Virus record (IMG/VR): IMGVR_UViG_3300025765_000001
DNA from: a virus
Lineage: Duplodnaviria > Heunggongvirae > Uroviricota > Caudoviricetes
Length of the DNA: 64,000 nucleotides
Strand: one strand, 5' to 3'
A model generated the notes under the pieces. It made no database searches, was not told where the DNA came from, and was given only the letters and a program-made list of their open reading frames with translations. Made by a program: the position numbers and the translations under genes. Positions 8,290 to 50,573 of the stretch are shown piece after piece; the stretch's first letter is position 1; each line of letters starts with the position of its first letter.

Positions 8290-9000
8290 ATGAGATTTCT
8301 AATGGCTGCTCTGGCTGGCCTGATGCTTGTTGTATCCCCAGCCTTGGCACAAGAAAAGCAAACACCAAGCATCGTCGTGACTGGCGAAGCTAAACTCAGC
8401 GTTAAACCTGAGTTGGCCTACGTGTCACTAGGCGTCGTGTCGGAAGCCCCAACCGCCTACGATGCTTTGCAGAAAAACAATGTTTCGATGAAGTCCTTGT
8501 TTACGCTCTTGAACGAGAGCAAGGTTGCCGAGAAGGACATTCAGACTTCCGGTTTCAACATCAGCCCCCGCTACGACTACAAGAACAATGAGACAAAGTT
8601 CCTGGGGTATACAGTTTCCAATAACGTCACGATTACCGTGCGAGATTTGGCGAACCTTGGGAAGCTCCTCGATGTCCTTGTGAAGAACGGTGCGAACAGC
8701 ATTCACGGCGTCACCTTCGGAGTTTGTGATCCGAGCAAGTTGGCCGACGACGTGCGAAAGGCTGCCATGCAGGATGCCAAGCGAAAAGCCACTTTGTACG
8801 CCGAGGGCGGCGAGTTCCGCTTGGGCGGGGTGATCTTCGTGACCGAGCTTGGCGTACCGAGAGCCAGCCCGCAGATGTACGCTGCTTCTCACATGGCTGA
8901 TGCCGAAGCTGGTGGGAACGTCCCGGTTTCTGGCGGGGAACTGACAGCAGCAGTACGTCTCCAGGTGACTTTTGCCATCGGGGGTCCGCTGCTGAACTAA
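8290..9000 (+). CDS. SIMPL (DUF541) domain exported protein
   Basis: Signal peptide; SIVVTGEA..SVKPELA.VSLGV, A..DA..KA..YA, VPVSGGE. Confidence 0.9.
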   Translation: MRFLMAALAGLMLVVSPALAQEKQTPSIVVTGEAKLSVKPELAYVSLGVVSEAPTAYDALQKNNVSMKSLFTLLNESKVAEKDIQTSGFNISPRYDYKNNETKFLGYTVSNNVTITVRDLANLGKLLDVLVKNGANSIHGVTFGVCDPSKLADDVRKAAMQDAKRKATLYAEGGEFRLGGVIFVTELGVPRASPQMYAASHMADAEAGGNVPVSGGELTAAVRLQVTFAIGGPLLN

Positions 9001-9054
9001 CGATAAGGTGCTGAACACCAAACTGTCCGTTCGTCCGAATGTGGACAAGTGATG

Positions 9055-9083
9055 TTGACACGCCTCACTGAAAACACTATAGT
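9055..9083 (+). promoter_or_regulatory. Sigma70-type promoter P1
   Basis: TTGACA(9055-60)-17 nt-TATAGT(9078-83). Confidence 0.7.
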
Positions 9084-9137
9084 GGGGCCTTGATATGACC
9101 CTGGCTTTGCCGTCAGGGGTGAATCTAGAAAAGAGGG

Positions 9138-9165
9138 TTGACATCAGCCTCGACTAGACTAGAAT
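9138..9165 (+). promoter_or_regulatory. Sigma70-type promoter P2; predicted start just before the first ACAGCA hairpin
   Basis: TTGACA(9138-43)-16 nt-TAGAAT(9160-65). Confidence 0.7.
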
Positions 9166-9174
9166 GTGAACTCA

Positions 9175-9226
9175 GAGACGCTCACAGCATCTTTCAATAC
9201 TATGACAAGGTTGAAGATAGCGTCTC
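9175..9226 (+). ncRNA. ACAGCA hairpin element 1 (candidate small RNA)
   Basis: Stem gagacgct/agcgtctc, ACAGCA at 9184-89, inner helix tct(t)tcaa/ttgaaga. Confidence 0.6.
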
Positions 9227-9231
9227 GTTTC

Positions 9232-9318
9232 GGGCGGTTAGCTTAACTGGACAGAGCATTCAGGAAAAGCCGCAAGGCCACTACTGAAGGGTTGGAGGTT
9301 CGAGTCCTTCACCGCCCA
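9232..9318 (+). ncRNA. tRNA-like RNA with the anticodon loop replaced by a 20-nt loop
   Basis: Acceptor GGGCGGT/ACCGCCC, D arm GCTT..TGG..GAGC, stem TTCAG/CTGAA, T arm GGAGG-TTCGAGT-CCTTC; no encoded CCA. Confidence 0.8.
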
Positions 9319-9321
9319 CTA

Positions 9322-49325: not shown

Positions 49326-50573
49326 TTACAGTTCGCCGACTTCCACTTTCTCCTCTGTCGGTTCATCATTTTCTAGGCCAATGAGGTCGATGATCCTCTT
49401 AGGTTGGGCACCCATGCCTTTTCCGTCGCCTAGTGCCAGTTTCTCGATGGCCTTCCTGACATTCGTAGCAATCATCCCGTCATCATCCAGTTCATGGTTG
49501 TTCATGATCTGACCAGTGCAGAACTTGTCGAGCCGCAGTCTGGTAATCTCCGACCATAGGACTTTCCTGTGCCACTTATTCCACTTGGCGACGTTCTTCC
49601 AGTGGATGCACTTCTCGATCACGTTCTGGGTATAGGCTTCGATCTTCTTACTCAGAGTCTCTACCTTTTCCTTGAGGAACGGGAAGTATGCCAGTACCTC
49701 GTCTTGTTCTTCATTCACGACAACCGGAACGAGGTATTTGTAGTAAGTCTTGTCGAGCATGTGGTGGTACTTCACGTACTCTGGGTCTTTTACCTTGATT
49801 CTGTGCCCGGTATTTTTGTCTCGGAACACGAACCCCTCGAAGTCCGGCGTTGTCTTCTTTATGTCCTCCATCATTTGGGTGATGTACTCATGGTTGGTGG
49901 ACGCCGCCCAGCGACGTGGCCTCTTGGCCCCGATCTTGGTCGCAACCTTGTCCAGTTCCTCCTCCGTGAGTTCGACATAGGATTTTAGGTTCCTTGCTCC
50001 CAGCAGATAGAGGCCGTAGTGTTCTGGCTGGTACTTCGTCCAGACGAAGCTCGCCTCGTGGATGAACTCGAACACGTAGGTCATGTTTGCACGATGCGTC
50101 CAGTCGAGGGCCTTGACGAACTCCCCGATCAAGCTGAGGTATTTGTATGGCTTACCGTGGAAGCCAGTGATGACCATCTCCATGTCTTTTGCATGGGTAC
50201 AGATCATCCTCCTGGTGTGCCACAGCAATTCGTTGCCCTGGAAAAAGACGCCGACCATAGTGCCGTCGAGTTTCTCGATCATCTCGGCATTCTTCAGGTC
50301 TACAGGAGCGGCCTCCTTCTCGCCTTGGTTGTAGAACCGGACAAACGAGAAGCTCCTAATTCGCTCTAGTGGGTCTTTGGACGCAGCCTTAGTGACAACC
50401 ATGCCACGGACTAGTTGGTTGAAGTCGTTTCTTGGGCCTGGGCCGTAGTTGAGGATGAAGTGGTCTCCCTTGTCGCCGCACCAGATGTTGTGGTGCTTCA
50501 GCCACTCATTCCCCTCTATGCCGGTCTTGGAGATGATTTTACGCAGTCTGTCTAGTTCATGCATAGAAAGCAT
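49326..50573 (-). CDS. RNA ligase (T4 Rnl1-like)
   Basis: Motif I EKLDGT, YVFEFI, EGFVF, RIKVK..EY. Confidence 0.85.
   Translation of the reverse strand: MLSMHELDRLRKIISKTGIEGNEWLKHHNIWCGDKGDHFILNYGPGPRNDFNQLVRGMVVTKAASKDPLERIRSFSFVRFYNQGEKEAAPVDLKNAEMIEKLDGTMVGVFFQGNELLWHTRRMICTHAKDMEMVITGFHGKPYKYLSLIGEFVKALDWTHRANMTYVFEFIHEASFVWTKYQPEHYGLYLLGARNLKSYVELTEEELDKVATKIGAKRPRRWAASTNHEYITQMMEDIKKTTPDFEGFVFRDKNTGHRIKVKDPEYVKYHHMLDKTYYKYLVPVVVNEEQDEVLAYFPFLKEKVETLSKKIEAYTQNVIEKCIHWKNVAKWNKWHRKVLWSEITRLRLDKFCTGQIMNNHELDDDGMIATNVRKAIEKLALGDGKGMGAQPKRIIDLIGLENDEPTEEKVEVGEL

What the first reader, a model, noticed from the sequence alone, without database searches (positions are those of the whole stretch)
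9232..9318. tRNA mimic with no anticodon embedded in the hairpin array
Seen: perfect 7-bp acceptor, D arm with GG, 5-bp anticodon-position stem, 5-nt variable loop and TTCGA T arm. The 7-nt anticodon loop is replaced by 20 nt (GAAAAGCCGCAAGGCCACTA) containing a GCC-GCAA-GGC GNRA hairpin, with no U33 and no encoded CCA. Known: bacterial Y RNAs (YrlA) next to Ro60 genes mimic tRNA. Inference: it is either an RNase P/Z processing signal that releases the flanking ACAGCA RNAs, or a decoy for anticodon nucleases or T-box/tRNA-binding proteins.
Basis: partly seen in the sequence, partly recalled or inferred. Interest (0 to 1): 0.75.

Follow-up and report, generated by a model that had tools for sequence, protein, structure and literature searches.

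The report
Anticodon-less tRNA-Val look-alike in phage RNA array
A giant phage keeps a tRNA-shaped RNA with the body of a valine tRNA but a plugged anticodon loop, wedged between small partner RNAs of a Ro60-like protein, where it most likely tells the cell's tRNA-trimming enzymes where to cut the array.

Summary
Window 9232-9318 is a strong tRNA match (Rfam 47.9 bits) whose 7-nt anticodon loop is replaced by 20 nt holding a GNRA mini-hairpin.

New here:
- Outside the anticodon arm it is a bacterial tRNA-Val body. All 20 exact genome matches to its 3' 22-mer are tRNA-Val.
- An ortholog from a related phage keeps the 20-nt loop, with compensatory changes.
- The acceptor and T stems are 24/24 identical between the two, while neutral spacer is 48% identical.
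- It sits flush between two "xCAGCA" stem-loop RNAs, 5 nt and 3 nt away. These lie behind a near-consensus promoter in the leader of a DUF2828/vWA gene whose model matches Ro60.
- In other phages and elsewhere in this genome, real tRNAs or other degenerate tRNA-likes hold the same flush position. In some phages the CAGCA module sits inside a tRNA-like.

Best reading (about 0.5): a non-decoding, t-element-like RNase P/RNase Z cutting module that sets the ends of the flanking RNAs.

Rivals: a YrlA-like tRNA-mimic partner or decoy, or an "enigmatic intron" tRNA.

No RNA data could be obtained. This scan has already noted the DUF2828/handle-RNA pairing on other DNA; I found no paper describing it.

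The parts
9055..9083 (+). Upstream sigma-70-like promoter (TTGACA, 17 nt, TATAGT)
   Evidence: Matches 11 of 12 consensus positions. 26 of 29 bases are identical in ortholog L099, while the 54 nt after it are only 48% identical.
9138..9165 (+). Promoter of the RNA array (TTGACA, 16 nt, TAGAAT). The predicted start is about 9172, 2-3 nt before handle RNA 1.
   Evidence: Matches 11 of 12 consensus positions and is conserved in L099. No terminator-like site follows until 11113.
9173..9231 (+). Handle RNA 1: stem 9175-9182 with 9219-9226, xCAGCA motif after the 5' strand, and a GUUUC tail that ends at the tRNA-like 5' end.
   Evidence: Model R1 scores 47.4 bits. Stem covariation was measured on alignment A2. 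92% identical in L099.
9232..9318 (+). The finding: a tRNA-Val-type tRNA look-alike with full acceptor, D and T arms and a 5-bp stem at the anticodon position.
   Evidence: Rfam tRNA 47.9 bits; model R2 53 bits. The 3' 22-mer matches 20 bacterial tRNAs exactly, and all are Val. Outside the anticodon arm, 52 of 57 bases match an alphaproteobacterial tRNA-Val. The ortholog is L099:404-488.
9264..9283 (+). 20-nt loop replacing the 7-nt anticodon loop: GAAAA, then mini-hairpin GCC-GCAA-GGC (9269-9278), then CACUA.
   Evidence: The ortholog has AAGAA, GCC-GAAA-GGU, GACAA: same length, GNRA kept, and a G-U substitution that keeps the pair. 14 of 20 bases are identical, against 48% in neutral spacer.
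9319..9321 (+). 3' trailer CUA: no CCA. It also serves as the 2-3 nt 5' overhang of handle RNA 2.
   Evidence: 52 of 63 tRNAs of this phage have C-U after the discriminator, and none encodes CCA. The same CUA-GAGAC junction follows tRNA-Cys at genome 171762/171763.
9320..9379 (+). Handle RNA 2: stem 9322-9329 with 9367-9374, AACAGCA motif, GUUUC tail.
   Evidence: Model R1 scores 51.2 bits. 87% identical in L099.
9412..9480 (+). Handle RNA 3: stem 9414-9422 with 9467-9475, AACAGCA motif, and an inner GNRA hairpin, just before the ribosome-binding site.
   Evidence: Model R1 scores 36.9 bits. 95% identical in L099. The same subtype occurs in L010 and L011.
9501..11108 (+). Ro60-like protein gene (DUF2828 plus DUF7788/vWA; the MIDAS residues are invariant).
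   Evidence: Pfam. AlphaFold2 model with pLDDT 84.5. The top 13 Foldseek PDB hits are all Ro60/Rsr/TROVE over the full length. D313, S315, S317, T388 and D421 are invariant in alignment A1.
11113..11141 (+). Terminator-like hairpin after the Ro60-like gene.
11175..11465 (+). Small RRM-domain protein gene, followed by a terminator at 11476-11506.
   Evidence: Pfam RRM_1, E 5.8e-25. An RRM gene sits in the same place in L099. Terminator.

Best explanation
The element is a tRNA-Val-derived RNA that keeps the tRNA shape but cannot decode.

**Setting.** It is transcribed from the promoter at 9138-9165 as part of one precursor. That precursor carries three 'handle' stem-loop RNAs (stem plus xCAGCA motif). 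These are the likely Y-RNA-like partners of the Ro60-like protein encoded immediately downstream.

**Proposed mechanism.** The element keeps a full acceptor/T-arm helix, the D/T elbow and the phage's usual C-U trailer. The host's tRNA-maturation enzymes therefore treat it as a pre-tRNA.
- RNase P cuts at 9231/9232 and creates the GUUUC 3' tail of handle RNA 1.
- RNase Z, or the equivalent 3' pathway, cuts after A9318 and creates the CUA 5' overhang of handle RNA 2.

It thus works like a plant-mitochondrial t-element or like mascRNA. The anticodon loop is plugged by a GNRA mini-hairpin, so the released tRNA-shaped piece cannot enter translation. That piece probably receives CCA.

**Shown:**
- the anatomy;
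- the conservation pattern;
- the flush junctions;
- the recurrence of those junctions with real tRNAs;
- the Ro60-like fold of the neighbouring gene.

**Inferred:** transcription as one precursor, the two cleavages, CCA addition, and binding of the handle RNAs to the protein.
For: 1. **Canonical tRNA architecture except for the loop**. The Levitt pair covaries: A15:U48 here, G15:C48 in the ortholog. The L-shape is therefore under selection.

2. **Conservation against the 85%-identical-protein ortholog L099**.
- Acceptor plus T stems: 24/24 identical.
- Rest of the element: 47/63.
- Neutral inter-promoter spacer: 26/54.
The parts read by RNase P, RNase Z and the CCA enzyme are the most constrained.

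3. **Flush geometry in the window.** The gap is 5 nt on the 5' side and 3 nt on the 3' side. Model R1 hits at 9173-9231 and 9320-9379 bracket 9232-9318.

4. **The same geometry elsewhere.**
- In this genome, handle RNAs start right after tRNA-Cys and tRNA-Met.
- In other phages the order is Pro-handle-Thr, Trp-handle-Phe, handle-Arg and handle-Met-handle.
- L015/L017 (54% protein identity) alternates handles with degenerate tRNA-likes. Three of its four lack an anticodon loop.

5. **Matching overhangs.** The 2-3 nt 5' overhang predicted from RNase Z cleavage (CUA) matches the overhang predicted from the promoter start of handle RNA 1.

6. **Shared trailer.** 52 of 63 tRNAs of this phage carry C-U after the discriminator, as this element does. 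None encodes CCA, and the genome has two CCA-adding-type genes.

7. **Loss of decoding constraint.** Positions 33 and 37 are C and U here but U and A in the ortholog. That fits a lost decoding role with a retained structure.

8. **Published precedent.** Plant-mitochondrial t-elements are cut by RNase P and RNase Z (PMC1920247). M. smegmatis YrlA is cut by RNase P and CCA-tailed (PMC4201824).
Against: - No RNA data.
- Relatives at 66-77% protein identity (L009, L100, L010, L011, L012) run handle arrays without any tRNA-like. They use separate promoters or direct tandems. Punctuation by a tRNA shape is therefore not required by the system.
- Pure punctuation does not explain why the extended anticodon arm is itself conserved: 20 nt, a GNRA hairpin, and a compensatory stem change.
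- A second tRNA with a hairpin plugged into its anticodon loop lies at genome 206778-206872. It has a tRNA-Arg body and no handle RNAs beside it.
Confidence: 0.5

Rival explanations
1. It is a functional tRNA-mimic partner of the Ro60-like particle. Whether or not it is cut out, the tRNA-Val look-alike would be a working module, as the tRNA-like domain of YrlA is thought to be. It could tether the Ro60-like protein/handle-RNA particle to enzymes that bind tRNA. It could instead act as bait for factors that recognise the tRNA-Val body or 3' end. The plugged loop would keep it off the ribosome.
For: - The neighbouring gene folds like Ro60. Ro60 partners in bacteria carry tRNA-like domains (PMC4201824; preprint 10.1101/312249).
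- Next to DUF2828 genes in more distant phages, tRNA-likes carry the xCAGCA motif inside the anticodon-arm position: L087 645-761, L045 1000-1113, L027 2672-2789, L025 4279-4385 and L018 2323-2435. There the tRNA shape and the handle are one RNA.
- The extended arm is conserved in shape in the ortholog and in a paralog.
- The body is near-identical to the bacterial consensus tRNA-Val (52 of 57 bases) rather than to the phage's own four tRNA-Val genes.
- A35, C36 and A73 are retained in both orthologs.
Against: - The window element carries no handle motif itself.
- Relatives at 66-77% protein identity (L009, L100, L010, L011, L012) lack it.
- Retention of A35 and C36 is within what 70-75% background identity would give.
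- No binding partner is identified.
Confidence: 0.25
2. It is an intron-containing tRNA-Val. The 13 extra bases would be removed by an unknown endonuclease-plus-ligase route to give a decoding tRNA, as proposed for the 'enigmatic introns' in megaphage tRNA genes.
For: - The body is tRNA-Val, and the last 5-7 loop bases read as a Val loop: GCCACUA here and GUGACAA in L099.
- The paralog at genome 206778-206872 differs from a bona fide phage tRNA-Arg(UCU) in L134 by one base plus a clean 21-nt insert between U34 and C35.
- Introns in Lak megaphage tRNAs are published (PMC6784885).
- An Rnl2-type RNA ligase gene is present.
Against: - After removal, the window loop would have C33 and U37. These two positions, among the most conserved in tRNA, differ between the orthologs.
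- There is no bulge-helix-bulge.
- No tRNA-splicing endonuclease or RtcB was found.
- 13 nt cannot self-splice.
- The phage already has four tRNA-Val genes.
Confidence: 0.1
3. It is a decoy for anticodon nucleases or T-box-type readers.
For: Phages are known to counter tRNA-cleaving defences with their own tRNAs (general knowledge). This phage carries more than 60 tRNA genes.
Against: - Anticodon nucleases and T-boxes read the anticodon loop, which is absent here.
- No defence or counter-defence gene was identified beside the element.
- Its position, flush inside the handle array, is not explained.
Confidence: 0.07
4. It is a decaying tRNA pseudogene with no function.
For: The anticodon loop is destroyed, and relatives at 66-77% protein identity lack the element.
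Against: - The acceptor and T stems are 24/24 identical, against 48% in neutral spacer.
- There are compensatory changes in the anticodon stem, the Levitt pair and the mini-hairpin.
Confidence: 0.05

Closest known systems
Plant-mitochondrial t-elements and tRNA punctuation (Forner et al. 2007, PMC1920247)
   Same: - A non-canonical tRNA-like fold inside a longer transcript.
- A conserved GGTTCRANYCC T arm and acceptor helix.
- Ends that coincide with the ends of the neighbouring RNAs.
- Cleavage by RNase P and RNase Z, with the excised element getting C/CCA.
   Different: This one is in a phage, not an organelle. It releases small structured RNAs (partners of a Ro60-like protein) rather than mRNA ends. 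Its cleavage is not demonstrated. Its anticodon arm is lengthened in a conserved way rather than merely degenerate.
mascRNA / MALAT1 and MEN-beta tRNA-like 3' modules (cited in 10.1101/312249)
   Same: A tRNA-like without a decoding role. RNase P cleavage of it makes the 3' end of the upstream non-coding RNA and releases a small tRNA-like RNA.
   Different: Those are eukaryotic nuclear lncRNAs with a single module at the 3' end. Here the module lies between two small RNAs, so both of its ends would be used.
YrlA-type bacterial and phage Y RNAs bound by Ro60/Rsr (Chen et al. 2014, PMC4201824; Wang et al. 2018 preprint 10.1101/312249; Thermus phage phiLo Ro60, PMC12135203)
   Same: - A tRNA mimic encoded next to a Ro60-fold gene.
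- D, T and acceptor features are kept and there is no anticodon loop.
- M. smegmatis YrlA is even cut by RNase P and CCA-tailed.
   Different: - YrlA is circularly permuted: its acceptor is closed, and its 5'/3' ends form the Ro-binding stem in place of the anticodon stem.
- YrlA carries the GNCGAAN0-1G/CGAA motif.
- This element has normal tRNA topology, free ends and no such motif. The presumed protein-binding modules are separate hairpins beside it.
- The protein is DUF2828, related to Ro60 only at fold level.
'Enigmatic introns' in Lak megaphage tRNA genes (Devoto et al. 2019, PMC6784885)
   Same: A huge phage with tRNA genes that carry short inserts. The inserts are recognisable by aligning copies with and without them, as for the tRNA-Arg paralog against L134.
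   Different: Removing the insert from the window element does not restore a canonical loop. Splicing is shown in neither case. The Lak inserts are not reported next to Ro60-like genes.
Dictyostelium Class I RNAs (Kjellin et al. 2021, PMC7919456); relevant to the flanking handle RNAs, not to the tRNA-like
   Same: RNAs of about 60 nt with a short stem joining the 5' and 3' ends, a conserved motif directly after the 5' strand and a variable remainder. They are bound by an RRM protein, and an RRM gene follows the Ro60-like gene here.
   Different: Eukaryotic, and no Ro60-like partner is reported. I recall the motif letters as ending in ACAGCAA, but that is from memory. The paper's text as read only gave the conserved positions. 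Rfam found no such match in 8900-9600.

Membership tests
Canonical decoding tRNA | Cloverleaf with a 7-bp acceptor, D and T arms, and the conserved tertiary nucleotides (U8, A14, G18 G19, R15:Y48, T54-Psi55-C56, A58) | tested here: met
   Rfam tRNA scores 47.9 bits over the full model length. All of these nucleotides can be read. The 15:48 pair covaries with the ortholog.
Canonical decoding tRNA | A 7-nt anticodon loop with U33 and a purine at position 37 | tested here: not met
   The loop is 20 nt. The best 7-nt reading, GCCACUA, has C33 and U37.
tRNA-Val (body type) | Acceptor, T-arm and D-stem sequence of bacterial tRNA-Val, with A73 | tested here: met
   The 3' 22-mer hits 20 bacterial genomes exactly, and all 20 are tRNA-Val. 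52 of 57 bases outside the anticodon arm are identical to an alphaproteobacterial tRNA-Val(UAC).
Intron-containing tRNA (archaeal/eukaryal type) | A bulge-helix-bulge at the splice sites and a splicing endonuclease | tested here: not met
   The arm folds as stem, 5x5 internal loop and 3-bp hairpin, with no 3-4-3 bulge-helix-bulge. There is no PF01974 hit and no RtcB in the 436-kb record, which is estimated 85% complete.
Intron-containing tRNA (any type) | Removal of the insert restores a canonical anticodon loop | tested here: not met
   In the window this gives GCCACUA, or ARAGORN's GAAAAGA with A33. The test is met only for the separate tRNA-Arg paralog outside the window.
YrlA / Y RNA | Encoded beside a Ro60 (TROVE) gene | tested here: inconclusive
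   The neighbour matches Ro60/Rsr at fold level only: the top 13 Foldseek hits, E about 1e-6. Pfam gives DUF2828 plus DUF7788, not TROVE. A profile search of PDB sequences finds no Ro60.
YrlA / Y RNA | Permuted topology (closed acceptor loop, with the 5' and 3' ends forming the Ro-binding stem) and the GNCGAAN0-1G motif | tested here: not met
   Normal tRNA topology with free acceptor ends. The motif is absent from the sequence. No Rfam family other than tRNA matches at E up to 10 in 8900-9600.
   R1 hits lie at 9173-9231, 9320-9379 and 9412-9480 and do not include 9232-9318. The element lies between handles and is not one itself.
RNase P / RNase Z substrate (t-element-like processing module) | A 12-bp acceptor/T-arm coaxial helix, an intact T loop and D/T elbow, and no CCA in the trailer | tested here: met
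   The trailer is C-U-A, as in 52 of 63 tRNAs of this phage.
RNase P / RNase Z substrate (t-element-like processing module) | Observed cleavage at both ends | not testable with these tools
An experiment is needed.

The most novel reading that the evidence does not exclude
This phage may make a distinct class of 'plugged-anticodon' tRNAs. These are near-perfect tRNA-Val and tRNA-Arg bodies in which a mini-hairpin is built into the anticodon loop. Some synthetase identity bases stay exposed: A35, C36 and A73 in one, and C35, U36 and A20 in the other.

Such RNAs could still be recognised, and perhaps charged, by synthetases and other tRNA-binding factors while being barred from the ribosome. Next to the Ro60-like particle they could serve as bait, as a tether or as a sensor in the contest over tRNA between phage and host.

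Alternatively they could be a new kind of short tRNA intron, removed by an unknown nuclease and the phage's RNA ligase.
Probability: 0.2. Interest if true: 0.85.

Novelty: new variant of a known kind. Interest (0 to 1): 0.6.

Why it matters
If the cutting-signal reading holds, phages reuse the tRNA shape purely as a processing device for a family of small RNAs. Those RNAs partner a widespread Ro60-like protein (DUF2828) that I did not find described in the literature.

That gives a concrete handle on how these RNAs get their ends. It also gives a simple bench test: RNase P and RNase Z cleavage, and RACE.

Three observations tie this Ro60-like system to tRNA biology more tightly than is known for classical Ro60/Y RNA particles:
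- the same protein family sits in or beside tRNA arrays in many phages;
- its partner RNAs are interleaved with real tRNAs;
- in some phages the partner motif is built into a tRNA-like scaffold.

The conserved mini-hairpin in the loop, seen in two tRNA bodies of one phage, is unexplained. It bears on the open question of the 'enigmatic introns' of megaphage tRNAs.

Tried and rejected
**Searches that led nowhere**
- blastn of 9000-9520 against GenBank phages found no match.
- Single-protein locus search in viral contigs found nothing. The alignment-based search worked.
- A profile HMM of the protein family against PDB sequences found no Ro60. The link to Ro60 is at fold level only.
- Rfam with relaxed thresholds on 8900-9600 found only tRNA. 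No Y RNA, YrlA or Class I RNA family matched.
- A pattern for the shared D arm plus a long gap found only tRNA-Arg genes with long variable arms. These are not extended-loop relatives.
- A pattern for 'T arm, 11 nt, CTAGAGAC' gave 9 hits. Only L106 is clearly of this system.
- A metagenome scan anchored on the junction of handle 1 and the tRNA-like found only the L099 contig again.
- A pattern for tRNA-Arg(UCU) relatives with an insert found none.
- My first permissive hairpin script over the whole genome was useless. It was replaced by covariance model R1.

**Readings rejected**
- 'tRNA-Phe(aaa) with an intron' (ARAGORN), because of A33 and the Val body.
- A bulge-helix-bulge intron, on the fold and with no endonuclease.
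- A handle stem enclosing the tRNA-like as its 'body'. The stems of units 1 and 2 could cross-pair, but each closes locally.

**Paper not obtained**
- Burroughs and Aravind 2016 on RNA repair systems is not held in the library.

Full report
**What is there**

The window is part of a 435,946-bp virus record that carries more than 60 tRNA genes and a tmRNA. At 9232-9318 Rfam's tRNA model matches end to end. The score is 47.9 bits against a gathering score of 29, with E 3.8e-7 for the whole window. A 20-nt insert lies exactly where the 7-nt anticodon loop belongs.
- a 7-bp acceptor stem and A73;
- U8, A14 and G18 G19;
- a 5-bp stem at the anticodon position;
- a 5-nt variable loop;
- a TTCGAGT T loop;
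- a CUA trailer instead of CCA.

ARAGORN's label 'tRNA-Phe(aaa) with a 13-nt intron' is an artefact. The loop it proposes has A33.

**What kind of tRNA body it is**

The 3' 22-mer (T loop to discriminator) matches 20 bacterial genomes exactly. All 20 matches are tRNA-Val genes with the same 5' end. Outside the anticodon arm, 52 of 57 bases are identical to an alphaproteobacterial tRNA-Val(UAC). The phage's own four tRNA-Val genes are much less similar.

The last five loop bases are CACUA here and GACAA in the ortholog. They still look like positions 34-38 of a Val loop. The extra 13 bases lie 5' of them and pair with positions 32-33 to form the mini-hairpin.

**Conservation**

The closest homolog of the downstream protein (85% identity) lies on a 2.7-kb metagenome contig, L099. 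That contig is syntenic throughout: both promoters, handle 1, the tRNA-like, handles 2 and 3, the gene and an RRM gene. Identity between the two is as follows.

| Region | Identity |
|---|---|
| Ro60-like gene (DNA) | 83% |
| Spacer between the promoters | 48% (26/54) |
| Acceptor plus T stems | 24/24 |
| Rest of the tRNA-like | 47/63 |
| 20-nt loop | 14/20 |

The changes in the tRNA-like preserve its structure:
- the anticodon-position stem is UUCAG/CUGAA here and UCCAG/CUGGA in L099;
- the mini-hairpin is GCC-GCAA-GGC here and GCC-GAAA-GGU in L099, so the GNRA loop is kept;
- the Levitt pair is A15:U48 here and G15:C48 in L099.

By contrast, positions 33 and 37 differ: C and U here, U and A there. 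In decoding tRNAs these are nearly invariant. The fold is therefore under selection and decoding is not.

**Context**

Two promoters match the sigma-70 consensus at 11 of 12 positions, at 9055-9083 and 9138-9165. No terminator-like site follows until after the next gene.

Three stem-loops flank the tRNA-like, at 9173-9231, 9320-9379 and 9412-9480. Each has an 8-9 bp closing stem, then N-CAGCA, then a variable body, then a GUUU tail. I collected 24 such units from seven phage loci. The stem shows compensatory changes at 8 of 9 pairs, with 89.8% of cells paired against at most 48.6% when the partner strand is slid.

The covariance model R1 built from them hits only on the gene strand, next to homologs of the downstream gene, in about 22 distinct phage loci. 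Those homologs go down to about 26% protein identity.

The gene at 9501-11108 is DUF2828 plus DUF7788. Its AlphaFold2 model has pLDDT 84.5 and pTM 0.84. The top 13 Foldseek matches in the PDB are all full-length Ro60/Rsr/TROVE structures, including the Thermus phage phiLo Ro60. The vWA MIDAS residues are invariant in the family. An RRM-domain gene follows.

So the tRNA-like lies inside what looks like a Ro60-like protein/partner-RNA locus. Notes from this scan show that the same pairing has been reported on many other genomes. I found no paper on it.

**Why I read it as a cutting module**

The element touches its neighbours. GUUUC (5 nt) separates handle 1 from G1, and CUA (3 nt) separates A73 from the stem of handle 2. 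The same flush arrangement occurs in several other places.
- In this genome, R1 finds only two more handles. One starts right after tRNA-Cys, with a junction identical to the window's (discriminator, then CUA-GAGAC). The other starts right after tRNA-Met.
- In other phages the order is tRNA-Pro, handle, tRNA-Thr; tRNA-Trp, handle, tRNA-Phe; handle, tRNA-Arg; and handle, tRNA-Met, handle.
- In L015/L017 (54% protein identity) handles alternate with tRNA-likes without gaps. Three of the four tRNA-likes have no anticodon loop, each in its own way.

Real tRNAs have to be cut out by RNase P and the 3' pathway. Handles next to them are therefore released, and the same should hold here.

The predicted products are consistent with each other. 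A 2-3 nt 5' overhang results either from RNase Z (CUA) or from the promoter start of handle 1. A GUUUN 3' tail results either from RNase P or from U-tract ends in loci with separate promoters.

The element also shares the phage-wide trailer signature. 52 of 63 tRNAs have C-U after the discriminator and none encodes CCA. Two CCA-adding-type genes are present.

Plant-mitochondrial t-elements and mascRNA are the published analogues.

**What this does not explain**

Relatives at 66-77% protein identity (L009, L100, L010, L011, L012) run handle arrays without a tRNA-like. The module is therefore optional.

The extended arm is itself conserved. A second gene in this phage, at genome 206778-206872, has the same design. 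It is a tRNA-Arg(UCU) body that differs from a bona fide phage tRNA-Arg(UCU) by one base plus a 21-nt hairpin insert between U34 and C35, and it has no handles nearby. All three arms fold as stem, internal loop and short tetraloop hairpin.

In more distant phages, tRNA-likes beside the gene carry the xCAGCA motif inside the anticodon-arm position. That is the YrlA logic of joining a tRNA-like domain to a protein-binding module in one RNA.

These facts keep two rivals alive. One is a working tRNA mimic, acting as tether or bait. The other is an 'enigmatic intron' of the kind reported in Lak megaphages.

For the window element, several points argue against the intron reading:
- C33 and U37 would remain after removal of the insert;
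- there is no bulge-helix-bulge;
- no splicing endonuclease or RtcB was found.

An Rnl2-type ligase does exist.

**Verdict**

The element is not a member of the YrlA family, although it sits in an analogous system.

It is a new variant of known kinds: tRNA-like processing modules, and tRNA mimics tied to Ro60-type proteins. All mechanistic steps are inferred from anatomy and comparison, and none from RNA data.

Noticed in passing
Outside the window: genome 206778-206872 (L110:479-573): A second tRNA with a hairpin plugged into the anticodon loop. The body is tRNA-Arg(UCU) and differs by one base from a normal phage tRNA-Arg(UCU) (L134). A 21-nt insert lies between U34 and C35. It sits just after a degenerate HNH-like ORF and has no handle RNAs nearby. 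It is a candidate 'enigmatic intron' like those of Lak megaphages.
   Followed up: partly
Outside the window: genome 171763-171822 (L111) and 165210-165262 (L112): Two more xCAGCA handle RNAs, each starting 3-4 nt after a real tRNA (Cys, Met) inside the main tRNA arrays, about 70 kb from the Ro60-like gene.
   Followed up: partly
Outside the window: genome about 171836-171900 (L111): After the handle that follows tRNA-Cys lies an odd tRNA-Cys-like element. It has a 7-bp acceptor, a GCA anticodon loop and a T arm, but an expanded region in place of the D arm. ARAGORN and Rfam both miss it.
   Followed up: no
Whole genome: 52 of 63 tRNA genes have C-U directly after the discriminator and none encodes CCA. 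This is a phage-wide 3' trailer signature, which suggests one shared 3' processing route. Two CCA-adding-type genes are present.
   Followed up: partly
Outside the window: genome 165951-166036, 166107-166189, 195520-195600, 206405-206494; also L009:5026-5124: Some tRNAs have long variable arms where short ones are expected: Asn, Lys, 'Phe(AAA)' and Ile(UAU). A similar UAU tRNA with a long arm occurs in a related phage contig.
   Followed up: no
L087:645-761, L045:1000-1113, L027:2672-2789, L025:4279-4385, L018:2323-2435: In more distant phages, tRNA-like scaffolds beside DUF2828 genes carry the xCAGCA motif within a 40-50 nt insert at the anticodon-arm position. The handle and the tRNA shape are fused in one RNA.
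   Followed up: partly
82 sources searched (window plus 81 phage loci around DUF2828 homologs): 160 of 161 tRNA-model hits lie on the same strand as the DUF2828 gene, and about 28 sources have tRNA genes within 2.5 kb. The gene family is typically embedded in or beside tRNA arrays.
   Followed up: partly
window 9084-9137: Both tandem promoters are conserved with the ortholog, but the 54 nt between them are only 48% identical and differ in length. What the first promoter transcribes is unclear.
   Followed up: no
window 9173-9480 (handle RNAs): The architecture is a short 5'/3' stem, a conserved motif right after the 5' strand and a variable body of about 60 nt, with an RRM gene nearby. It resembles Dictyostelium Class I RNAs, which bind an RRM protein (PMC7919456).
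   Followed up: partly
window 14182-14545 and 62566-62661: A phage-encoded tmRNA (Rfam 114.8 bits, tag GETPAYRMAA) and a group II intron domain hit (56.3 bits).
   Followed up: no
window about 49788-50276 (-): A weak hit to the Rnl2-type RNA ligase family (22.8 bits, below the cut-off). A clear one lies outside the window at genome 332517-333032.
   Followed up: no
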